Below are positions 1,691 through 34,660 of a stretch of DNA of 36,197 nucleotides, piece after piece. The stretch comes from an uncultured Candidatus Saccharibacteria bacterium (GTDB taxonomy: Bacteria > Patescibacteriota > Minisyncoccia > Sungbacterales > SURF-37): positions 1 to 36,197 of the forward strand of contig CAYJUW010000001.1 of the NCBI GenBank assembly GCA_964373495.1. Reading direction: 5' to 3'. The notes beneath the pieces were generated by a model that searched no databases, was not told where the DNA came from, and was given only the letters and a program-made list of their open reading frames with translations. Made by a program: the position numbers and the translations under genes. Each line of letters opens with the position of its first letter. Positions within the stretch are counted from its first letter, which is position 1.

Positions 1691-3154
1691 TCAAGGTCTC
1701 AGGCTCTTTACTGCCCGTACGAACTTTTCCCCGCGGTCAAATTCGTGCCTGAACAGTCCAAAGCTCGCCGCGCCCGGCGAGAGCAGCACCGCGTCCCCCC
1801 GCTTGGCATTGCGGTAGGCCACCCGCACCGCCATCGCCATCGTCCGCGCATCCCGAATACTTAAATACTGTACAGTATTTAAGTATTCGCCATGTGCGCC
1901 GGGCTTTTGCCCCGTTTGCCCCTGGTGGAACATTTGCCGCCCCAAGGCCTTTTGCATTTTGTCGGTTGCTGTACCGGGCAGGAATGTTACGGAAGCTGCA
2001 TTCTCGCGGAGCGCCCGCATGAACTGACTAGCCGCTAGACCCTTGTCGTAACCGCCGGCGATGACGTGGAGACCGTGATGCCCGATGCCTCGCTTGGTGG
2101 CGATGATCGCTTGCTCCGCCGCCGTGGGATTCGTCGCCGTCGTGTCATTGATGAAGGAAACCCCGCGGACTTTCCGTACAAGCTCCATGCGGCCGGGCAT
2201 GCCGCGGAAGCGGGCGAGCGCGGTTCGGACGGCGCGCTCCCCTACTCCGGTATGCCGGGCGATGGCAACGGCCCCGGCGATGTTCGGGATATGGAACGCG
2301 GGAATGTTTTTTGCCAGCGCGTCACGGTAGCGACGCAAAATTTTCTGGGAATCGAAACGGATGACGCGCGATGGTGTATTACGGGCTATGCGCCGGAGCA
2401 GCGGATCACGGGCGTTGACGAACAGCATGTCACCGCGTTTCTGGAATTTGAAAATGTTCGCCTTGGATGCGATGTAGGCGGCCATCGAAGGGTAGCGGTT
2501 CAAGTGATCCGGAAAGATGTTGGTGATGAGGGCGATCGCCGGGCTCCGGCGGCTGTTCTTTAGCGAATCTAGTTGGAAACTCGATAGTTCCAGCACCACA
2601 AGGTCGTTTTTACGCACCCGTAACAGGAATTCAAGAACGGATTTCCTGATGTTGCCGCCGAGCCACACTCGGGATCCGCGTCTGATCCGCGTAGCCGATC
2701 CGCGTGGGATCCGCGGAGATTCCCCATGCCGCATCTCGGCACGGAGCATTGAGGCCAACAGGGTTGCGGTTGTTGACTTCCCTTTCGTACCGGTGATGCC
2801 GATGATCGGCGCCGGGCATCCGAGAAAAAAAATCTCAACATCGGAGAGGATGGAAACGCCGGCGCGCCTGGCGATTTTCAGAAACTTTGAGTTTTCGGGT
2901 ACGCCGGGGCCCTTGATGATGTAGTCAGCGATTTTGAAATCAGCCGGCCGGTGCCCGCCGAGGCGGTAGGTGATGTTTTTGAAGCGGCGGAGTTTGGCAA
3001 TGGTCGGCGCAAGTTGCCGTTTCGTTTTCAGATCAGTGACGATCACGTGGCTTCCCAAGCGGGAGAAGAAAGCAGCGGCGCCGGCGCCGCCTCCGTGCAA
3101 CCCCAATCCCATGATGAGGGCTTTTTTATTTTTGAAATCAGCGAGCTTCAGCAT
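1691..3154 (-). CDS. murD: UDP-N-acetylmuramoylalanine--D-glutamate ligase (MurD) with two unusual in-frame inserts
   Basis: N-terminal GLGLHGGG Rossmann motif, P-loop GITGTKGKSTT, and C-terminal LLSPGAASFGLFRHEFDRGEKF, which is typical of MurD. 487 aa. Confidence 0.9.
   Translation of the reverse strand: MLKLADFKNKKALIMGLGLHGGGAGAAAFFSRLGSHVIVTDLKTKRQLAPTIAKLRRFKNITYRLGGHRPADFKIADYIIKGPGVPENSKFLKIARRAGVSILSDVEIFFLGCPAPIIGITGTKGKSTTATLLASMLRAEMRHGESPRIPRGSATRIRRGSRVWLGGNIRKSVLEFLLRVRKNDLVVLELSSFQLDSLKNSRRSPAIALITNIFPDHLNRYPSMAAYIASKANIFKFQKRGDMLFVNARDPLLRRIARNTPSRVIRFDSQKILRRYRDALAKNIPAFHIPNIAGAVAIARHTGVGERAVRTALARFRGMPGRMELVRKVRGVSFINDTTATNPTAAEQAIIATKRGIGHHGLHVIAGGYDKGLAASQFMRALRENAASVTFLPGTATDKMQKALGRQMFHQGQTGQKPGAHGEYLNTVQYLSIRDARTMAMAVRVAYRNAKRGDAVLLSPGAASFGLFRHEFDRGEKFVRAVKSLRP
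1854..1889. repeat. 36-bp perfect palindrome CGAATACTTAAATACTGTACAGTATTTAAGTATTCG inside murD (GTAC-core AT-rich family)
   Basis: Arms checked base by base around the GTAC centre at 1870-1873. Encodes EYLNTVQYLSIR in the murD frame. Confidence 0.95.
2671..2715. repeat. Four closely spaced GATCCGCG copies (2673, 2684, 2697, 2708) inside murD
   Basis: Sequence is GGGATCCGCGTCTGATCCGCGTAGCCGATCCGCGTGGGATCCGCG. It encodes the Arg/Ser-rich stretch PRIPRGSATRIRRGSR between the P-loop and the GGNI motif. Confidence 0.85.
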
Positions 3155-10048: not shown

Positions 10049-10082
10049 TAATACTGTAATACTGTACAGTATTACAGTATTA
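10049..10082. repeat. 34-bp perfect palindrome TAATACTGTAATACTGTACAGTATTACAGTATTA (variant of the GTAC-core family)
   Basis: Checked base by base. Lies 14 nt downstream of the TrpR-like gene stop. Shares the core AATACTGTACAGTATT with 1854, 10652 and 24710. Confidence 0.95.
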
Positions 10083-10651: not shown

Positions 10652-10683
10652 AATACTTAAATACTGTACAGTATTTAAGTATT
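10652..10683. repeat. 32-bp perfect palindrome AATACTTAAATACTGTACAGTATTTAAGTATT
   Basis: Checked base by base. Lies 35 nt upstream of the TrpR-like gene start at 10617. Confidence 0.95.
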
Positions 10684-23599: not shown

Positions 23600-25444
23600 C
23601 TACTGCGGGAGCTCAAATTTAAATACCCGAAACGCGACTTCATTTCGCGGATTTCGGATTTCTTCCGGCACCACGCCCTTGGCGCGGAGTTCGGCTTCCA
23701 AGAGGTCACCGTCCGGCGCGGCTGGCCGGGGGCGATCCTGAAGGGCGTATGCCAAAGGGTTGAAGAAGTAGATTTTCTGAACGCCGGATTGCCGGAGGAA
23801 CTCGGCCGCTCCCCCGCGCCGGAAGTTTTCTGCGCTCACCACCGGCCAGCCCTGGTAGGTGATGCGCCGCAGGAAGACCCAGAGCTGGGCGGCGAGGTTG
23901 ATGTTGTCGTTGTAGACGATGCCGAGCGGTGTTGGCTTGAGTTTCTGGCGTCTGCCTTCGGCAGCCGCTTGATTCAAAAGTTCATGCGCGAACGGAAATT
24001 CAAAGGTGATGGCCGGATCCGGCATCTTGCCCGCCAGCTCCTGGCCGAGGTAGGCGTTCAGCTTGTTGAATCCCCAACTCCCGGTTTGGCGGTGGAGGTA
24101 GGAGTAGGCCCAGGGCTTCTCGCCAACCGGATCGAGGGCTATAACGCTGTTGTAAGCATAAAAGGCCTCAAAGGCGACAAAAGCCGCAAAGGCCGCAAAG
24201 ACAATGGCGGGCGATTTCATTCCTAAATTCCTAGGAATATTGGAATAGATTGTTGCGCTGATGGCGTAGCCGGCGGCAATGGCCAGCCACGGGGTGAGCA
24301 GGGCCAGGAAGCGGTGCGCCGGACCGATGAATACGAGGAACGGCAGGAGCCAGATAAAAACAATGGCTAATGGCGAATGGCTGGTGGCTAAGGTACGGCG
24401 GCGGATTAGCTCCCAGAAGATTGCGACGAGACCGGTAACAGAAAGAATGAGGAAGTAGGGCGAGTTGGCCTCGATGAGCCGCGGCACGTACATCCGTACG
24501 CGATCGGAGAGCGACCCGAGTACTTCCTGCCCCGGCCGCGCCTGCCATTCCGGCACATCCTGTCTAAAGAGGAGCGAAAATTGAAAATCAAAGTGGCCGA
24601 AATGGCGGTAGAGTTGAATATTGTAGATAATCACCGGACTTGCGATGACCAGAAAGGCCATGACCGAAAGTAAAACATGTTTGGCGGGGAAACGCCGCCC
24701 CCATCGTCCAATACTTAAATACTGTACAGTATTTAAGTATTTAATTTGGAGGAGGTAGAGGGTCAGTAATATCGGTGCGAGGATCGCGGCGAGGTACTTC
24801 GCGAGGAAGGCAAAGCCAAGGAGCGCGCCGGAAAGGGGCAGCCACCACGAGGAGTTTCGCTTCGTCGTTGCGAAGCTGGGCGTCGTGTCAAGACCGCGCA
24901 GAAACGCCCAGAACGACGCAAGCATGAAGGCGATGAGGACGGATTCCTGCAGGCCGATCCGGGAGATCCAGACGTGATTGGCGGTGACGGCAAAGAGCAA
25001 AGCGCTTATCGCCCCTACGGTTGGCGAATAACTATGGAAGCCCGACTTCAATAGTTTGCCGCCTATTGAAGTCGGACTTCCATAGATTCCAGAGAGTTGG
25101 GCGCCAATGAGGTAGACGAAAATGACCGCGGCGATGCCGGCAAGCGCCGAGGGCAGGCGCACGGCAAAGGGCGTCTCGCCGAAGAGTTTCATGGAATAGT
25201 GCTGCAGTAAAAACACCAGCGGCGGGTGGTCGTGGAAGGAAAGGCGCATCCACCACGGGGGCTGGGTGTCAATCCACTGCCACGGCGTGGGCTGTTCGAT
25301 CCCGAAATCAAAATCCACGAGGCCGATAGCCCGCGTGGCATAGGAGGACTCGTCGGTTACGATGTCCGGCCGGCCGAGATGCCAGAAATAAAAAACAGCC
25401 GTGAGGCAGAGAAGACCGCCTATCAGCCAATTCTGGGACTTCAT
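23600..25444 (-). CDS. ArnT/PMT-family (GT39/GT83-like) membrane glycosyltransferase with a C-terminal soluble extension
   Basis: N-terminal DESSYATRAIG loop motif, more than 10 TM segments, about 614 aa. The track start at 25447 is a GTG and ATG 25444 is adjacent. Confidence 0.75.
   Translation of the reverse strand: MKSQNWLIGGLLCLTAVFYFWHLGRPDIVTDESSYATRAIGLVDFDFGIEQPTPWQWIDTQPPWWMRLSFHDHPPLVFLLQHYSMKLFGETPFAVRLPSALAGIAAVIFVYLIGAQLSGIYGSPTSIGGKLLKSGFHSYSPTVGAISALLFAVTANHVWISRIGLQESVLIAFMLASFWAFLRGLDTTPSFATTKRNSSWWLPLSGALLGFAFLAKYLAAILAPILLTLYLLQIKYLNTVQYLSIGRWGRRFPAKHVLLSVMAFLVIASPVIIYNIQLYRHFGHFDFQFSLLFRQDVPEWQARPGQEVLGSLSDRVRMYVPRLIEANSPYFLILSVTGLVAIFWELIRRRTLATSHSPLAIVFIWLLPFLVFIGPAHRFLALLTPWLAIAAGYAISATIYSNIPRNLGMKSPAIVFAAFAAFVAFEAFYAYNSVIALDPVGEKPWAYSYLHRQTGSWGFNKLNAYLGQELAGKMPDPAITFEFPFAHELLNQAAAEGRRQKLKPTPLGIVYNDNINLAAQLWVFLRRITYQGWPVVSAENFRRGGAAEFLRQSGVQKIYFFNPLAYALQDRPRPAAPDGDLLEAELRAKGVVPEEIRNPRNEVAFRVFKFELPQ
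24710..24741. repeat. 32-bp perfect palindrome AATACTTAAATACTGTACAGTATTTAAGTATT inside the glycosyltransferase CDS
   Basis: Identical to 10652-10683. Encodes KYLNTVQYLSIG in frame. Confidence 0.95.
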
Positions 25445-27344: not shown

Positions 27345-28304
27345 TCAGAGCATGATTCTTACGACCTCGATGGTTTCAACTTTCTCCGTGAGCAGTCCGG
27401 CCTTGAGCATTAATTTTACCATGGCAAAAAGCAGAATCAAGCTGATCCAGTACACCGGGAGGGTGAGCATTTTGATGGCGATAAAGAAGCCGGCTGCGGC
27501 CAGGAACGGGAGGTAGGCGCGGTACGGCCCGGCGAGCTTTTCGATTTGGGTATTGGCTACGCGGTAGATGAGGTCCCCGCCGCGCTCCTCACCGGTGAGC
27601 TCGACCCCGAGCTCCTGGGCCAGCGCCCCCCGGTTCTCGCGCAGGAACTGGGCGCGCTCGGCCGCGGAGAGCTTTCGGACATCAATGTCAGGGCCGCCCT
27701 GCCACGCGGCAAAGGCCAGGAGCAGTTCGTCCACGGTGGCATCGCGGCGGAAGCCGGGCAGGAAATTTTGCAGCGGCTGCTCAATCAGGGGTATGGCGGC
27801 ATCGAAAAGGGCTTTGGGTAGGATGCTCTGGGTGGCCGCGCCCGAGACCGCGGTGAAGTAGAAGACGGCCAGGGTCAGGGCCACGGCGGTGAAGAATACC
27901 GGCAGGCCGCCGCGGAAAATTTTCCGCACGGCAAAGGCGTTGGAAATTCGGTACTCGCCGGCAATGGCATCGCTGGCGTACCAGCCGGCCGCGGCGCTGG
28001 CCGCGGCCGCGGATGCGGCCAGCGTGGTTGCCGGAACCAGGAGATAGCCGCCGGCAAGGGCCATCATGGCCGAGACCGTGCGCAAGGCCGGTCGCGTGAT
28101 AAAGGCCGAGGAAAGCGCAAAGAGGATGGCAAACAAAAAGAGCGCGATGACCGGCAGGGAGTAGAAGGTGAGACCGGCAAACCCCGTTAGATGCTCCGCG
28201 TCTAACGGGGCAAGCAGCACGCCTTTCCAGAGGTAGGCGTTGGCAAGGCCGGCCGCGACGGTGAGAACTCCAAGCGTGTATTCTTTCCAGTCTGGCTGTT
28301 GCAC
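27345..28304 (-). CDS. Hypothetical multi-TM membrane protein
   Basis: ORF with a GTG start. Its stop is 2 nt from the dnaJ ATG, which suggests coupling. No family recognised. Confidence 0.6.
28182..28210. repeat. CCCCGTTAGA-N9-TCTAACGGGG hairpin inside the 27345-28304 CDS
   Basis: Arms at 28182-28191 and 28201-28210. Encodes [10 protein letters not shown] in frame. Confidence 0.9.
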
Positions 28305-28350
28305 GGATACGTTCTGAGTGTTATCTTACTACGAAAGAGGTAAAGGACGT

Positions 28351-28596
28351 ATGGAGGAGACGAAGATGTTGAGTGAGTTCCTTGTCCTGGTAAAAGTTTT
28401 AGGACTTCTATTCGTCTATCTCTCCGGGCCGGTGGTAATCATTACGGTGGGCGGTTCACTTCTTTTACAGAAACTTTTCCGTTTTCCATTGGCGCAGAGA
28501 ATGCCTCCATTATCGCGTGTTGAGCTCATTGCATTCGGGATTCCCACAGCAGCAAGCTTGGCGGCCTGGGGCTGGCGGCTCTGGCGGCTTCTCTAA
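28351..28596 (+). CDS. Hypothetical small membrane protein (81 aa), low GC
   Basis: AAAGAGGTAAAGGA SD region upstream of ATG 28351. Two or three hydrophobic segments. Followed by an imperfect hairpin and TTTTCTTTTT at about 28628-28665. Confidence 0.5.
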   Translation: MEETKMLSEFLVLVKVLGLLFVYLSGPVVIITVGGSLLLQKLFRFPLAQRMPPLSRVELIAFGIPTAASLAAWGWRLWRLL

Positions 28597-28709
28597 GGCG
28601 AGTGGCCGCTCGCAACACGCTCACCAACGGTGCGAAGATCGCATCCGGTGGGCGTTTTCTTTTTCAAGGTATCTCCTCGACTGCGCTCGGAGAATGAAAA
28701 TCTTCGGTA

Positions 28710-28849
28710 ACCGCACCGTACGCGGTGCGGTATCTGATTTTGAACGAGATCCCTCGTCCCGCTTTCGGCGGGACTCGGGATTATTGTTTGTTCCCGCCAT
28801 TCATCCGCGCCGCCCAGCGGCGCGGTATTCTGGCGGACAAACAATAAAA
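28710..28849. repeat. Three-hairpin structured element, copy C
   Basis: 138/140 identical to 19898-20037. The mismatches are at 28719 and 28734. Confidence 0.9.
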
Positions 28850-28852
28850 CGG

Positions 28853-28941
28853 TAGTCCCTGAGCTTAGTTTACCCTGAGCCCGTCGAAGGGAAGGGCTAC
28901 CATAATAAATTTGGTATGCCTTCGACGAGTTCAGACAATAC
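28853..28941. repeat. Left flank of the GIY-YIG gene: one inverted and one direct hairpin unit
   Basis: TAGTCCCTGAGC...GTCGAAGGGAAGGGCTACCAT (28853-28903) faces GGTATGCCTTCGACGAGTTCAGACAATAC (28913-28941). Confidence 0.8.
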
Positions 28942-28944
28942 GGG

Positions 28945-29238
28945 TCACCATTTCCCCCACTCGCCGCGAATCAGCTTTTCTTTCTTGGCGCGCGTCCAGC
29001 CCTTGATTTGCTTCTCCCGCCGGCGAGCGGTATCGAGATCTTCGTACGCCTCGGAGTACGCTACCTTCTCCGGTTTATGCTTCGCGGTGTATTTAGATCC
29101 TAGACCGGAAAGGTGTTGAGTCCAACGGGTGTCGGGTTGCCATGTGAGGCCTGTGTAATAAGAATCATCTCGGCATTTGAGGATGTAGACGTACCACTTC
29201 CAACCCCGCCTTTTGCATAAGGTATGCCTTCGATACAC
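28945..29238 (-). CDS. GIY-YIG nuclease-domain protein (YhbQ/UPF0213-like, 97 aa)
   Basis: WYVYILKCRDDSYYTGLT...RWTQH...YTAKHKPEKVAYSE...ARRREKQIKGWTRAKKEKLI. The only in-frame start is GTG 29238. Confidence 0.8.
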   Translation of the reverse strand: MYRRHTLCKRRGWKWYVYILKCRDDSYYTGLTWQPDTRWTQHLSGLGSKYTAKHKPEKVAYSEAYEDLDTARRREKQIKGWTRAKKEKLIRGEWGKW

Positions 29239-29361
29239 TCAGGCAGTACTTTTTTTATTGTCGTGTCCTTGCGGTATGCCTTCGACCTGTGGTGAGCCAG
29301 TCGAACCCACAAGCTCAGGCAATATCTTTTTAGTCCCTGAGCGAAGTCGAAGGGCTGCCAT
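29221..29361. repeat. Right flank of the GIY-YIG gene: two direct units and one inverted unit
   Basis: GGTATGCCTTCGATACACTCAGGCAGTAC (29221-29249), GGTATGCCTTCGAC..CTCAGGCAATATC (29273-29326), and TAGTCCCTGAGCGAAGTCGAAGGGCTGCCAT (29331-29361). The block ends 1 nt from the dnaK stop. Confidence 0.8.
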
Positions 29362-29362
29362 G

Positions 29363-31258
29363 TTATGATTTGGCTTCATCGTCTTTTTTCTCTTCGTACT
29401 CCGCGTCCTTCACATTCGGGCTGCCGCCAGCTTCCGGCTCCCCGCCGCCAGCTCCCTGCTGCTTATACAATATCTCCCCGATCTTCTGGCTCGCAACCGC
29501 GAGCTCCTGCGATGCCTTTTTGGTGGCCTCAAAGTCGTCGCTGTCCTTCACTTTTTTAAGCGCCTCGACTTTCTCTTCGATCTCTTTTTTGATTTCTGGC
29601 GGCACTTTGTCCCCGGATTCGCGGAGCGCCTTCTCGGCCGTGTAGACCATGGCATCGGCGGTGTTTCGGGCCTCAACGAGCTGGCTCTTTTTTTTATCTT
29701 CCTCGGCATGGACTTCGGCCTCGCGCTTCAGTTTCTCGATCTCGTCTTTGGAAAGACCGGTGGAGGCCTCGATCCTGATGGATTGCTCCTTGCCAGTGGC
29801 CTTGTCCTTGGCCTTGACCGAGAGAATGCCGTTGGCGTCAATGTCAAAGGTCACCTCAACCTGAGGCATGCCGCGCGGCGCGGGGGGGATGCCGTCGAGA
29901 ATGAATCGGCCAAGCGTCTTATTATCAGAAGCCATGGGTCGCTCGCCCTGGAGCACGTGGACCTCAACCGAGGTCTGGCTGTCGGCGGCCGTGGAAAAGG
30001 TCTGGGTTTTTGAGGTCGGGATGGTGGTGTTCTTCTCAATGAGGCGGGTCATCACCCCGCCCAGGGTTTCGATGCCCAAGGACAGCGGCACGGCGTCGAG
30101 CAAGAGCACGTCTTTGACCTCGCCTTGGAGGATCCCGGCCTCGATGGCCGCGCCCACGGCCACCACCTCGTCGGGGTTGATGGAGCGGTTGGGCTCCTTG
30201 CCAAAAAACTTTTTCACCGCCTCGACAATGGCCGGCATCCGGGTCTGGCCGCCGACGAGGATGATCTCGTCAATGTCGGCGAGCCCGAAGCCCGAGGCCT
30301 TGAGCGCGCGCCCGGTGATCTCGATGGATTTTTGGATGTAGTCAGCCACCAGCTCCTCCAACTTGGCCCGGGTCATCTTGACGAGGAGGTGCTTGGGCCC
30401 GCTCTCGGTGGAGGTGATGAAGGGTATGTTAATTTCGGTCTCGAAGGTGGTTGAGAGATCGTGCTTGGTGCGCTCAGCGGCCTCCTTCAGGCGCTGGCGG
30501 GCGAGCGTGTCTTTGGAGAGATCAATCCCCTCTTCTCTTTTAAACTCGGCGACAAGCCAGGCGATGATGCGCTGGTCAAAGTCGTCGCCGCCGAGGTGCA
30601 TGTCGCCGTCAATGGCCTTGACCTCGATGACATCGTCGCCGATTTCGAGTACGGAGAGGTCAAACGTGCCGCCGCCAAAATCGTACACGACAATTTGTTC
30701 ATTCTTGCGCTTATTAAAGCCATAGGCCAGGGCCGCGGCCGTGGGCTCGGGCAGGATGCGCCGGACATTGAACCCGGCGATCTCGCCCGCGGCTTTCGTG
30801 GCCGCGCGCTGGGAATCGTCGAAATAGGCCGGGCAGGTGATGACCGCATCCGTGATTTTGCCGCCCAATTTCTCCTCGGCATCGGTCTTTAACTTCTGCA
30901 GTACCATGGCCGAGATCTCCTCGGGCCGGTACCATCGCCCGGCCATGTTGACCTCAATCCCGCTCGAAGCCGATTCGCGGATCTCGTAGGGGAGGAGTTT
31001 TTTGTCGAGCTGGACCTCTGGGTCGGTCCAGCGCCGGCCGATCAGGCGCTTGACCGAATAGATGGTGTTTTTGTGGTTGGTCACGGCCTGGCGTTTGGCC
31101 AAGACCCCGGCGATGCGCTCGCCGGATTTGCTTTGAGCCACCATGGAGGGCGTGGTCCTGGCCCCTTCCTTGTTTTCGAGCACCTTGGGTTCGCCGCCCT
31201 CGATGGCGGCCATGGCCGAGTTCGTTGTGCCCAAATCGATTCCTAGTATCTTAGGCAT
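29363..31258 (-). CDS. dnaK: Molecular chaperone DnaK (Hsp70)
   Basis: [17 protein letters not shown], and [17 protein letters not shown]. 631 aa. Confidence 0.97.
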
Positions 31259-34131: not shown

Positions 34132-34464
34132 CTAGACGGCCGTGAGCTCCTTTCCAGTGTAGGCGGTTCGGATCGCTCCCTCTTTGAGCCGCCACTGGTA
34201 GGGCGTCTCCGCAAGCAACCCGAGGAACTTGGTCATCGCCGTACTCGGCGTCCACGGCTGCAGAGCCGGCTTCAGCATACTGGTGGCTGCCGCAAGTCCC
34301 GGCGGCGATGCGGCGGCGATGCTCTTAAAGAACGCGAGCGCGAGGCGTTTATTACCGCCCGCGCCGAATACCTCGCCGCTCTGCGGCGAGGATGAAGGCG
34401 CATCTTTACATCGAGCGCGCCGAGGTGGTCGAGGCGCGCGAGCCCCTTCAGGTAACAAAAGCAT
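34132..34464 (-). CDS. Possible hypothetical protein or gene remnant (about 110 aa)
   Basis: The ORF ends 36 nt before a good terminator. The C-terminal half looks protein-like, the N-terminal half is Arg/Pro-rich, and there is no SD. Confidence 0.35.
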   Translation of the reverse strand: MLLLPEGARAPRPPRRARCKDAPSSSPQSGEVFGAGGNKRLALAFFKSIAAASPPGLAAATSMLKPALQPWTPSTAMTKFLGLLAETPYQWRLKEGAIRTAYTGKELTAV

Positions 34465-34474
34465 CACTTCAATA

Positions 34475-34495
34475 CCGCACCGCTCTGCGGTGCGG
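34475..34495. repeat. Solitary CCGCACCGC-TCT-GCGGTGCGG hairpin (same stem as hairpin 1 of the three-hairpin element)
   Basis: Read directly. Lies immediately upstream of the 34132-34464 ORF. Confidence 0.8.
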
Positions 34496-34660
34496 ATGCT
34501 TTATTCCGACCCATGCGTATCCCTCCTTCTTGGGTGAGTTGCGTTCACTGCTGGGGCGTTTTATGTCCTCTTTGATGCTCTAGACCGAAGGATCATCGGC
34601 TGTCAATTATCAATTATTCTTTCGAGCAACTTTTTGCTATAGTAAAGTTAAGCAACTACC

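What the first reader, a model, noticed from the sequence alone, without database searches (positions are those of the whole stretch)
28853..29361. GIY-YIG nuclease gene bracketed by five copies of a hairpin-forming repeat unit
The unit GGTATGCCTTCGAC-Nx-CTCAGRCARTAY occurs in direct orientation at 28913-28941, 29221-29249 (22/29 identical to the first) and 29273-29326. It occurs in inverted orientation (TAGTCCCTGAGC..GTCGAAGGGCTRCCAT) at 28853-28903 and 29331-29361. The arrangement is therefore an inverted pair, a direct unit, the ORF, a direct unit, and another inverted pair. The ORF stop is 4 nt from one direct unit, and its only possible start (GTG 29238) lies inside another. Small free-standing GIY-YIG genes of the YhbQ type are often multicopy. 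Here the gene looks like a discrete cassette with repeat boundaries, immediately downstream of dnaK and next to copy C of the three-hairpin element.
Basis: partly seen in the sequence, partly recalled or inferred. Interest (0 to 1): 0.65.

Follow-up and report, generated by a model that had tools for sequence, protein, structure and literature searches.

The report
GIY-YIG nuclease gene framed by hairpin repeats
A small nuclease gene just after dnaK sits between mirrored copies of a short DNA hairpin, and the same gene-plus-hairpin arrangement recurs in many bacterial phyla, which suggests an apparently undescribed partnership between this function-unknown nuclease family and a widespread hairpin repeat.

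Summary
The 13-mer GGTATGCCTTCGA occurs exactly three times in 36 kb, all beside a GIY-YIG (UPF0213/YhbQ-like) gene.

The unit is one member of a widespread hairpin family. It has a roughly 10-bp covarying stem and a near-invariant 11-nt loop, TCGAC-ARG-CTC.

In 80 homologous loci from many phyla, plus four held-out loci, the gene is typically framed by an inverted pair. The loop reads GAGCYTGTCGA just before the start codon and TCGACARGCTC at the stop codon. Units are about 40-fold denser within 1 kb of the gene than further away.

Two diverged relatives carry the gene at the same dnaK-proximal site, with different unit arrays. dN/dS is 0.03-0.05. Seventy-nine of 80 more distant dnaK loci lack the gene.

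In relatives, units also occur nested, in arrays of alternating orientation, and inserted in frame in DnaK and DnaJ.

My best reading is a DNA-level nuclease-plus-cognate-hairpin module that works like REP/RAYT but uses a different enzyme class. The enzymology is inferred, not shown. I found no matching Rfam family or paper. "Recently mobile cassette" is only partly supported.

The parts
28945..29238 (-). GIY-YIG (UPF0213/YhbQ-like) nuclease ORF of 97 aa, counted from GTG 29238. The catalytic-core residues Y18, Y28, R38, H42 and E75 are all present.
   Evidence: Pfam PF01541, E = 1.6e-18. Matches PDB UPF0213 proteins 1zg2 and 1ywl. 88% and 86% identical to P0001 and P0002. Invariant columns. 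dN/dS 0.03-0.05.
29216..29218 (-). Ancestral ATG start codon, placed directly after the upstream hairpin as in relatives. It is now 1 nt out of frame with the ORF, with the homopolymer runs AAAA (29211-29214) and GGGG (29204-29207) in between.
   Evidence: Direct reading against L081 (ATG AAG GGC ... TGG AAA TGG) and L082.
29221..29249 (+). Hairpin unit immediately upstream of the gene. It is in I form relative to the gene and has a degenerate loop (TCGATACACTC). It contains the GTG start.
   Evidence: Model hit 29216-29254, E = 0.023. It matches the I unit at the same position before the ATG in L081 and L082.
29273..29326 (+). Compound unit. The outer hairpin is GGTATGCCT/AGGCAATAT. A second unit in the opposite orientation (loop TCGACTGGCTC on the - strand) is nested in its loop.
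   Evidence: Model hit on the nested unit, 29280-29319(-), E = 0.014.
29331..29361 (-). Unit 1 nt from the dnaK stop codon. It is in D form relative to the gene strand: GGCAGCCCT TCGACTTCGCTC AGGGACTA.
   Evidence: Model hit 29325-29364(-), E = 0.029.
28913..28941 (+). Unit 3 nt downstream of the stop codon, in I form relative to the gene. The loop is TCGACGAGTTC and the stem has one C.A mismatch.
   Evidence: Model hit 28908-28946, E = 0.016.
28853..28903 (-). Compound unit in D form relative to the gene. The outer arms are GGTAGCCCT/AGGGACTA. Inside them sits a canonical inner hairpin, CCCT-TCGACGGGCTC-AGGG. Together with 28913-28941 it forms a gene-less inverted doublet.
   Evidence: Best model hit in the window, 28863-28901(-), E = 5e-5.
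28668..28697 (+). Degenerate sixth unit (GGTATCTCC TCGACTGCGCTC GGAGAATGA). It marks the far edge of the array, next to a sequence that is conserved in relatives.
   Evidence: Weak model hit (8.5 bits). The same unit lies next to the shared anchor aaaaagaaaacgcccaccgg in L081 and L082.
28710..28849 (+). Copy C of the 140-nt 'three-hairpin element', which lies inside the unit array. Its middle hairpin (28741-28781) is a long-loop relative of the unit. In copy A the matching hairpin (18023-18063) is a canonical unit, ACCCT-TCGAC...CTC-AGGGT.
29363..31258 (-). dnaK, the upstream neighbour. I found no terminator-like site between it and the GIY-YIG gene.

Best explanation
The locus is one instance of a conserved two-part module. 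One part is a small single-domain GIY-YIG endonuclease of the UPF0213 family. The other is its cognate DNA hairpin repeat, which has a variable, base-paired stem of about 10 bp and a near-invariant 11-12-nt loop, TCGAC-ARG-CTC.

In the basic form the gene lies between two inverted copies. On the sense strand the loop reads GAGCYTGTCGA just before the ATG and TCGACARGCTC overlapping the stop codon. Each DNA strand therefore carries the same hairpin 3' of the gene.

I propose that the nuclease recognises the extruded or single-stranded hairpin through its constant loop and cuts there. Host repair or copying of the cut would then duplicate, invert, nest and occasionally disperse units. In function this resembles REP/BIME repeats and their RAYT enzyme.

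In this window the module has been resident downstream of dnaK for a long time. It has gathered extra units, two nested units and a three-hairpin element, and its own start region is frameshifted by 1 nt.

Shown here: the association and its orientation rule, structural covariation with a constant loop, turnover of units between relatives, and strong purifying selection on the protein.

Inferred: that the protein cuts these hairpins, and that cutting drives their spread.
For: 1. Orientation rule in 80 loci from many phyla. Within 30 nt upstream of the start there are 26 I-form units against 3 D-form. Within 30 nt downstream of the stop there are 18 D-form against 2 I-form. Sequences are shown.

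2. Enrichment near the gene. By my hand count of the table, about 160 model hits reach E <= 1e-3 in the GIY-YIG loci, and about 140 of them lie within 1 kb of the gene. That is roughly 0.85 per kb against 0.02 per kb further away. Eighty dnaK-centred control loci (624 kb) have 6 such hits, and one of them flanks the only GIY-YIG gene in that set (L155).

3. Held-out test. In four loci (seven contigs, 28.5 kb) that were not used to build the model, every hit with E < 0.05 lies in the two spacers flanking the gene. The I form ends 4-5 nt before the ATG, and the D form overlaps or abuts the stop codon.

4. Hairpin under selection. In 90 distinct units the loop is invariant or nearly so while all 10 stem pairs covary. 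The covariation score is 0.54 against 0.21 in shuffles (0 of 500 shuffles reach it), and slid registers give 0.09-0.22. There is also a compensatory change between corresponding units: TGCCT/AGGCA in L081 against TGTCT/AGACA in L082.

5. Evidence for a DNA-level rather than RNA-level role. The two flanking units are mirror images, so they would give different loops in the mRNA. Wobble pairs show no strand bias (64 G.T against 60 A.C). No terminator-like sites were found.

6. Unit dynamics.
- The window, L081 and L082 share the site but differ in unit number and order.
- Neighbouring units alternate in orientation (DI 35 + ID 25 against DD 8 + II 8).
- Nested units are present.
- A 24-nt unit core is inserted in frame in a DnaK loop of L158, at alignment columns occupied in only 4 of 77 sequences.

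7. The nuclease is kept. dN/dS is 0.03-0.05 with dS > 1, and the catalytic residues are invariant.
Against: - There is no biochemical evidence that UPF0213 proteins cut these hairpins, or any defined substrate.
- GIY-YIG enzymes hydrolyse DNA and do not rejoin it, so any spread must rely on host repair. I found no target-site duplications.
- Away from the gene the units are sparse (about 0.02 per kb), so a large genome-wide family is not shown for this organism.
- More distant UPF0213 genes have no units. These include one in a Bacillota operon between a tRNA methyltransferase gene and rsmI, and genes in Cetobacterium and Legionella. The family's basic activity therefore does not require the units.
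- The window's own units are partly degenerate, and the gene's canonical start is out of frame. This particular copy may be losing function.
- Co-occurrence at whole-genome level (units present only where the gene is present) could not be tested.
Confidence: 0.5

Rival explanations
1. The gene is a homing-type parasite of pre-existing repeats. Some other process spreads and maintains the hairpin units. The GIY-YIG ORF is a selfish passenger that cuts gene-less inverted doublets at their centre and is copied in by repair, using the two arms as homology.
For: - The gene sits at the centre of long palindromes in several lineages. The inverted repeats reach 105 nt or more in L054 and 104 nt in L066, with no target-site duplication.
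- Gene-less I-spacer-D doublets exist, including 28853-28941 in the window.
- The gene is found in many unrelated contexts.
- GIY-YIG homing endonucleases are an established class (general knowledge).
Against: - The protein is 87-97 aa and consists of the catalytic domain only. It has no DNA-binding module of the kind known GIY-YIG homing enzymes use.
- The gene is stably inherited at one site across dS > 1 and is under strong purifying selection, which is unlike a typical homing cycle of invasion and decay.
- Units are concentrated around the gene rather than the gene being scattered among abundant units.
Confidence: 0.2
2. The nuclease is a genome-maintenance partner. It is an Slx1-like structure-specific enzyme that removes or resolves hairpins and cruciforms formed by these repeats during replication. 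It stays linked to them because carriers of the repeats need it, not because it spreads them.
For: - Strong purifying selection and long residence at one site.
- Covarying stems imply that the hairpins really form.
- The UPF0213/YhbQ group is related to the Slx1 nuclease domain (from memory of Dunin-Horkawicz et al. 2006; not checked here).
- A Caulobacter COG2827 gene is reported to carry an SOS box (PMC1839093).
Against: - It does not explain the precise mirror-image framing of the gene, the overlap of the hairpins with the start and stop codons, or the roughly 40-fold local concentration of units at the gene.
- An invariant asymmetric loop points to sequence-specific recognition, not recognition of structure alone.
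Confidence: 0.15
3. The hairpins are RNA-level or cis-regulatory elements. They would act in the transcript as stabilisers, terminators or translational operators of a housekeeping repair gene. For example, they might sequester the ribosome-binding site or allow autoregulation.
For: - The upstream unit ends 1-5 nt before the ATG in many loci, and its 3' arm (GAAGGG) could double as a Shine-Dalgarno-like sequence.
- The downstream unit overlaps the stop codon.
- dnaK and the gene are probably co-transcribed, since no terminator lies between them.
Against: - The two flanking units are reverse complements, so the RNA would carry two different loops.
- G.U wobble pairs show no strand bias.
- No U-tracts follow the hairpins on the sense strand.
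- No Rfam family matches.
- Units also occur in arrays of both orientations, nested, and inside coding sequence.
Confidence: 0.12
4. The repeats are only a local accident: a small lineage-specific tandem or inverted duplication of no wider meaning.
For: - Within the window, the exact 13-mer is confined to this one locus.
- L168 shows tandem duplication of a three-unit block.
Against: - The same unit frames homologous genes in Patescibacteria, Chloroflexota, Nitrospirota, Bacteroidota and Rhizobiales, and it does so in held-out loci.
- A model built without this lineage finds the window units.
Confidence: 0.03

Closest known systems
REP/BIME repeats with their RAYT (TnpA-REP) gene, the 'REPtron' or REPIN-RAYT system
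   Same: - Short extragenic hairpin repeats with a constant recognition motif and variable, covarying stems.
- Arrays of units in alternating orientation.
- A small nuclease gene framed by inverted copies of its repeat.
- The gene is vertically inherited and under purifying selection rather than hopping.
   Different: - The enzyme is a GIY-YIG hydrolytic nuclease, not an HUH/Y1 transposase that forms a covalent intermediate.
- The constant element is the hairpin loop, not a 5' GTAG-type tetranucleotide.
- The host range includes Patescibacteria, Chloroflexota and Rhizobiales.
- Dispersed copy number appears lower.
- No biochemistry exists.
UPF0213 / YhbQ / YazA small GIY-YIG proteins (PDB 1zg2 BH0048, 1ywl EF2693)
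   Same: The same single-domain fold and family (E = 5e-17 and 9e-15), the same length, and the same conserved Tyr-Tyr-Arg-His-Glu core.
   Different: - The structurally solved and housekeeping members have no assigned function.
- The distant members I checked lack the hairpin units (Bacillota operon between a tRNA methyltransferase gene and rsmI, Cetobacterium, Legionella).
- The repeat-linked genes form a subfamily.
Free-standing GIY-YIG homing endonucleases (I-TevI, T4 Seg proteins)
   Same: A GIY-YIG catalytic domain. The gene lies between sequences that could serve as homology arms. It is found in varied genomic contexts.
   Different: - No DNA-binding domain.
- Not in an intron or a phage.
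- Framed by structured hairpins.
- Long-term residence with dN/dS of about 0.04.
Rickettsia palindromic elements (RPEs)
   Same: Short palindromic units that can insert in frame into protein-coding genes. Here the insert reads 'PSTSSGQA' in DnaK and DnaJ of relatives.
   Different: RPEs are 100-150 nt long, restricted to one lineage, and have no associated enzyme. The in-frame inserts here are about 24 nt, and the family is linked to a nuclease gene.
MITEs and IS200/IS605-type elements with hairpin ends
   Same: Inverted or structured ends around a small gene. Gene-less doublets resemble non-autonomous derivatives.
   Different: No DDE or HUH transposase, no target-site duplication detected, and no known insertion-sequence family uses a GIY-YIG enzyme (from my own knowledge of IS classification).

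Membership tests
GIY-YIG superfamily, UPF0213 (YhbQ/YazA-like) group | Match to the GIY-YIG domain model above the curated threshold | tested here: met
   PF01541, 67.2 bits against a cut-off of 22.6, residues 14-87.
GIY-YIG superfamily, UPF0213 (YhbQ/YazA-like) group | Conserved catalytic core (Tyr of 'GIY', Tyr of 'YIG', Arg, His, metal-binding Glu) | tested here: met
   Y18, Y28, R38, H42 and E75 are invariant in 20 homologues and present in the window protein. Assigning them catalytic roles rests on my knowledge of UvrC and I-TevI.
GIY-YIG superfamily, UPF0213 (YhbQ/YazA-like) group | Single domain of about 90 aa, similar to solved UPF0213 proteins | tested here: met
   Homologues are 86-91 aa. 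1zg2 E = 5e-17 and 1ywl E = 8.6e-15. No NCBIfam or PADLOC model matched.
GIY-YIG superfamily, UPF0213 (YhbQ/YazA-like) group | Endonuclease activity | not testable with these tools
   Needs biochemistry.
REP/BIME-RAYT (REPtron) | Short hairpin repeats with a constant motif and covarying stems, in several copies | tested here: met
REP/BIME-RAYT (REPtron) | Enzyme gene framed by inverted copies of the repeat | tested here: met
REP/BIME-RAYT (REPtron) | Arrays of units in alternating orientation | tested here: met
   DI 35 + ID 25 against DD 8 + II 8.
REP/BIME-RAYT (REPtron) | The enzyme is an HUH/Y1 transposase of the IS200/IS605 TnpA type | tested here: not met
   The only domain found is GIY-YIG. 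The locus is therefore not a member of this family. It is only a functional analogue.
REP/BIME-RAYT (REPtron) | Tens to hundreds of dispersed copies per genome | tested here: inconclusive
   Only windows of 36 kb or less per genome were available. Density away from the gene is about 0.02 per kb.
Free-standing GIY-YIG homing endonuclease | Catalytic domain joined to a sequence-specific DNA-binding module | tested here: not met
   The protein is 87-97 aa and is covered end to end by PF01541.
Free-standing GIY-YIG homing endonuclease | Presence/absence polymorphism at one site among close relatives | tested here: inconclusive
   The gene is present at the same site in the window, L081 and L082. 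It is absent from 79 of 80 dnaK loci with 62-71% DnaK identity. No very close relatives were available.
TIR transposon / MITE | Terminal inverted repeats | tested here: met
TIR transposon / MITE | Target-site duplication and a transposase | tested here: not met
   No consistent duplication outside the repeats, and no transposase domain.
Intrinsic terminator | G+C-rich hairpin followed by a U-tract on the transcribed strand | tested here: not met
   No unit was called as a terminator. The only terminator-like sites lie at 28384 and 28710 on the + strand.
Any Rfam RNA family | Score at or above the family's gathering threshold | tested here: not met
   Only tRNAs reached threshold in the window and in 11 related loci. 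Nothing relevant appeared at E <= 10 in 28300-29500.

The most novel reading that the evidence does not exclude
A subfamily of the function-unknown UPF0213 (YhbQ-like) GIY-YIG nucleases is the dedicated enzyme of a hairpin-repeat family found across many bacterial phyla, defined by the loop TCGACARGCTC. This would be a second, independently evolved REP/RAYT-like system built on a different nuclease fold. Its units proliferate around the gene, disperse as inverted doublets, nest in each other's loops, and can insert in frame into essential genes such as dnaK.
Probability: 0.4. Interest if true: 0.85.

Novelty: new variant of a known kind. Interest (0 to 1): 0.75.

Why it matters
UPF0213/YhbQ proteins are among the most widespread small bacterial proteins that still lack a known function. 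Two structures were solved by structural genomics, but no substrate has been identified.

A reproducible, orientation-specific link to one hairpin with a constant loop gives a concrete candidate substrate that could be tested directly at the bench.

The hairpin units are common, and in some homologues gene callers have read through them into the protein's N-terminus (for example 'PFDFAQGKL' in P0020 and 'LRLRSGTK' in P0002). The link would therefore also give these units a probable origin.

If the link is functional, it would show that the REP/RAYT way of life (a resident nuclease plus its hairpin repeats) evolved more than once with different catalytic chemistry. It would also add a mechanism of genome and protein-sequence change in the small genomes of Patescibacteria, including in-frame insertions in DnaK.

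Tried and rejected
- **Exact look-ups.** Look-ups of the window's GIY-YIG and DnaK proteins found no record.
- **Rfam.** Three scans, including a permissive one of the locus, found only tRNAs and chance-level hits.
- **Literature.** Ten full-text searches found nothing that links the gene family to the repeats. They combined GIY-YIG with REP, REPIN, RAYT, MITE, terminal inverted repeats, and hairpin/palindromic/intergenic. They also covered YhbQ, UPF0213/COG2827, the unit sequence itself, and its translated peptides. The one paper I opened only notes three COG2827 genes in Caulobacter, one with an SOS box.
- **Terminator reading.** Rejected.
- **Strand-specific RNA reading.** Rejected, because wobble pairs show no strand bias.
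- **Target-site duplications.** None found around the inverted repeats.
- **Clean unit gain or loss.** I looked for one between two genomes with identical GIY-YIG protein (L168 and L169), but the comparison was blocked by a scaffold gap of Ns.
- **Copy number on plasmids.** The plasmid collection gave only 9 distant single-copy hits. It served as a negative control for distant family members.
- **NCBIfam and PADLOC.** No model matched.
- **Thermodynamic folding of the window's own units.** Only weakly better than shuffled sequence, so folding energy alone would not have established the hairpins.
Full report
**1. The observation**

The region lies downstream of dnaK in an hrcA-grpE-dnaK ... dnaJ cluster on the minus strand.

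The 13-mer GGTATGCCTTCGA occurs three times without mismatch, at 28913, 29221 and 29273, and nowhere else in the 36-kb window on either strand.

ORF 28945-29238 (-) is a GIY-YIG domain protein (PF01541, E = 1.6e-18). It belongs to the UPF0213/YhbQ type. A profile of its homologues matches the solved UPF0213 proteins 1zg2 and 1ywl.

Read in the direction of the gene, the layout is:

dnaK stop - D(29361-29331) - I(29326-29273) - I(29249-29221) - gene - I(28941-28913) - D(28903-28853) - three-hairpin element copy C - I(28697-28668).

Here D is the form whose loop reads TCGAC...CTC, and I is its reverse complement.

Two of the units are compound, with a second unit inside the loop.

The window's copies fold only a little better than shuffled sequence (z = -2.4 and -1.8).

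**2. What the unit is**

Over-extended N-termini of some database homologues translate upstream copies of the same unit, for example LRLRSGTK and PFDFAQGKL. That led me to fetch 80 loci encoding homologues. They come from Patescibacteria, Chloroflexota, Nitrospirota, Bacteroidota, Rhizobiales and other groups.

Nearly all of the first twenty, read by eye, carry the same unit on both sides of the gene.

I then took every occurrence of the core TCG[AG][CG]NNNCTC within 300 nt of the genes, without requiring a stem. The four flanking positions are Watson-Crick paired in 83-93% of cases, with CG, GC and TA alternatives. The same core more than 1 kb away, or in control loci, pairs at 24-40%.

For 90 distinct units the loop is invariant or nearly so, and all ten stem pairs covary. 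The covariation score is 0.54 against 0.21 for shuffles (0 of 500 shuffles reach it), and slid registers give 0.09-0.22.

The unit is therefore a hairpin with a variable stem of about 10 bp and a constant, asymmetric 11-nt loop, TCGAC-ARG-CTC. A long-loop class carries an extra small hairpin between TCGAC and CTC.

No Rfam family matches it.

**3. The link to the gene**

*Orientation rule.* With a strict finder, units within 30 nt upstream of the start codon are I form 26 times and D form 3 times. Units within 30 nt downstream of the stop are D form 18 times and I form 2 times.

In the Patescibacteria version, the upstream unit ends ...GTCGAAGGGCTACC 1-5 nt before the ATG. The stop codon lies inside the first arm of the downstream unit (TGG TAG CCCTTCGAC).

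*Enrichment.* I built a covariance model from these units. By my hand count of the table, it gives about 160 hits at E <= 1e-3 in the 82 GIY-YIG loci, and about 140 of them lie within 1 kb of the gene.

*Control.* Eighty dnaK-centred Patescibacteria loci (624 kb) give six such hits. One of the six flanks the single GIY-YIG gene in that set, in L155, where the rule again holds with a variant loop.

*Held-out test.* Four loci (seven contigs) were fetched afterwards. Their neighbours are unrelated: glycosyltransferase, ATP synthase, Wzy and PMT genes. Every hit with E < 0.05 lies in the two spacers beside the gene. The I form ends 4-5 nt before the ATG, and the D form overlaps or abuts the stop codon.

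*The window.* The same model, which contains nothing from the window's lineage, recovers the window units.

*Limits of the association.* Distant UPF0213 genes have no units. These include one in a Bacillota operon between a tRNA methyltransferase gene and rsmI, and genes in Cetobacterium and Legionella. A Sphingomonas gene has a D-I doublet upstream. The link therefore belongs to a subfamily, not to the whole family.

**4. History at this site**

Two relatives carry the gene at the same place. L081 (88% protein identity) has the end of dnaK upstream. L081 and L082 (86%) both share with the window a downstream anchor sequence and the unit next to it.

The three arrays differ in the number and order of units.

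The protein is under strong purifying selection. dN/dS is 0.03-0.05 and synonymous sites are saturated.

In L081 and L082 an ATG follows the upstream unit directly. In the window that ATG (29218-29216) is 1 nt out of frame, and only GTG 29238, inside the unit, is in frame. This may be a real frameshift, a sequencing error in a homopolymer run, or a shifted start.

Among 80 dnaK loci with 62-71% DnaK identity, 79 have no GIY-YIG gene downstream. dnaJ lies downstream on the same strand in 56 of them, often within 20-200 nt of the end of the DnaK match.

The module therefore entered the dnaK-dnaJ spacer in an ancestor of the window lineage and has stayed there.

**5. Behaviour of the units**

- Neighbouring units alternate in orientation (DI 35 + ID 25 against DD 8 + II 8), as in BIME arrays.
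- Units occur nested in each other's loops (window 29280-29319 and 28873-28891).
- They occur in tandemly duplicated blocks (L168).
- They occur as dispersed inverted doublets far from the gene.
- They occur inside coding sequence. A 24-nt core encoding PSTSSGQA is inserted in a loop of the DnaK nucleotide-binding domain in L158, at alignment columns occupied in only 4 of 77 DnaK sequences. Similar sequences lie in the DnaK C-terminal tail in L097, L141 and L160, and in the DnaJ glycine/phenylalanine-rich region in L117.
- The middle hairpin of the window's three-hairpin element is a long-loop member of the same family.

**6. Mechanism**

Three observations argue for a role in DNA rather than in one RNA strand:
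- The two units framing the gene are mirror images, so the mRNA would carry two different loops.
- Wobble pairs are equally frequent on both strands (64 against 60).
- The units are not terminators.

Variable stems with a constant loop suggest a protein that recognises an extruded or single-stranded hairpin. The obvious candidate is the nuclease encoded between the hairpins.

I therefore favour a nuclease-plus-cognate-hairpin module that works like REP/RAYT (confidence 0.5).

The rivals are:
- a homing-type gene that parasitises pre-existing repeats (0.2);
- a structure-specific maintenance nuclease kept because the repeats are hazardous (0.15);
- RNA-level regulation (0.12);
- a local accident (0.03).

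Cleavage, its position, and any causal role in unit spread are all inferred.

**7. Comparison with known systems, and novelty**

The locus is a member of the GIY-YIG/UPF0213 family.

It is not a member of the REP/RAYT family, because the enzyme is not an HUH transposase. It resembles that system in every architectural feature I could test.

It lacks the DNA-binding module of GIY-YIG homing enzymes, and it lacks the target-site duplication and transposase of MITE-type elements.

Ten literature searches and three Rfam scans found no description of the association. The library does not cover all journals, so prior description cannot be excluded.

I rate the finding a new variant of a known kind, with interest 0.75.

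Noticed in passing
L158 4003-4041; L141 5796-5834; L097 4132-4170; L160 4185-4222; L117 6092-6130: Cores of the hairpin unit lie in frame inside dnaK and dnaJ coding sequence of relatives, encoding (D)PSTSSGQ(A). In L158 this is an 8-residue insertion in a loop of the DnaK nucleotide-binding domain that is absent from nearly all other DnaK sequences. This recalls Rickettsia palindromic elements.
   Followed up: partly
window 1856-1887, 10050-10081, 10652-10683, 24710-24741: A 32-nt perfect palindrome, AATACTTAAATACTGTACAGTATTTAAGTATT, occurs four times (one copy is a variant). It is unrelated in sequence to the GIY-YIG units. It may be an operator or another repeat family.
   Followed up: no
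window 17992-18131, 19898-20037, 28710-28849: The 140-nt three-hairpin element has three copies; B and C are 99% identical. Its middle hairpin is a long-loop member of the same TCGAC...CTC hairpin family. In copy A (18023-18063) it is canonical. Copies A and B are not next to a GIY-YIG gene.
   Followed up: partly
window 34366-34500: A cluster of G+C-rich hairpins. It includes 34408-34446, which matches the unit model (loop TCGACCACCTC, 7-bp stem, E = 8e-4). I did not check whether it lies in coding sequence.
   Followed up: no
window 29204-29218: The ancestral ATG of the GIY-YIG gene (29218-29216) is 1 nt out of frame with the conserved ORF, and two homopolymer runs lie in between. This is either a true 5' frameshift rescued by GTG 29238 or an assembly error.
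   Followed up: partly
L168/L169 3270-3650; L170 2946-3317: Genes for PF05635 proteins (23S rRNA intervening-sequence protein family) lie about 1 kb from the GIY-YIG gene in two of the four held-out loci. This may be coincidence or a second small gene family that is often multicopy.
   Followed up: no
window 27345-28596: Two ORFs lie between the repeat array and dnaJ: 319 aa on the minus strand and 92 aa on the plus strand. They have no Pfam match and no counterpart in any of the 80 related dnaK loci. The whole 2-kb dnaK-dnaJ spacer is therefore specific to this lineage.
   Followed up: partly
L054 6221-6819; L066 9880-10414: In some Rhizobiales the inverted repeat around the GIY-YIG gene extends beyond 100 nt on each side. 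In L054 it continues past the aligned block, so the gene sits at the centre of a long palindrome.
   Followed up: no
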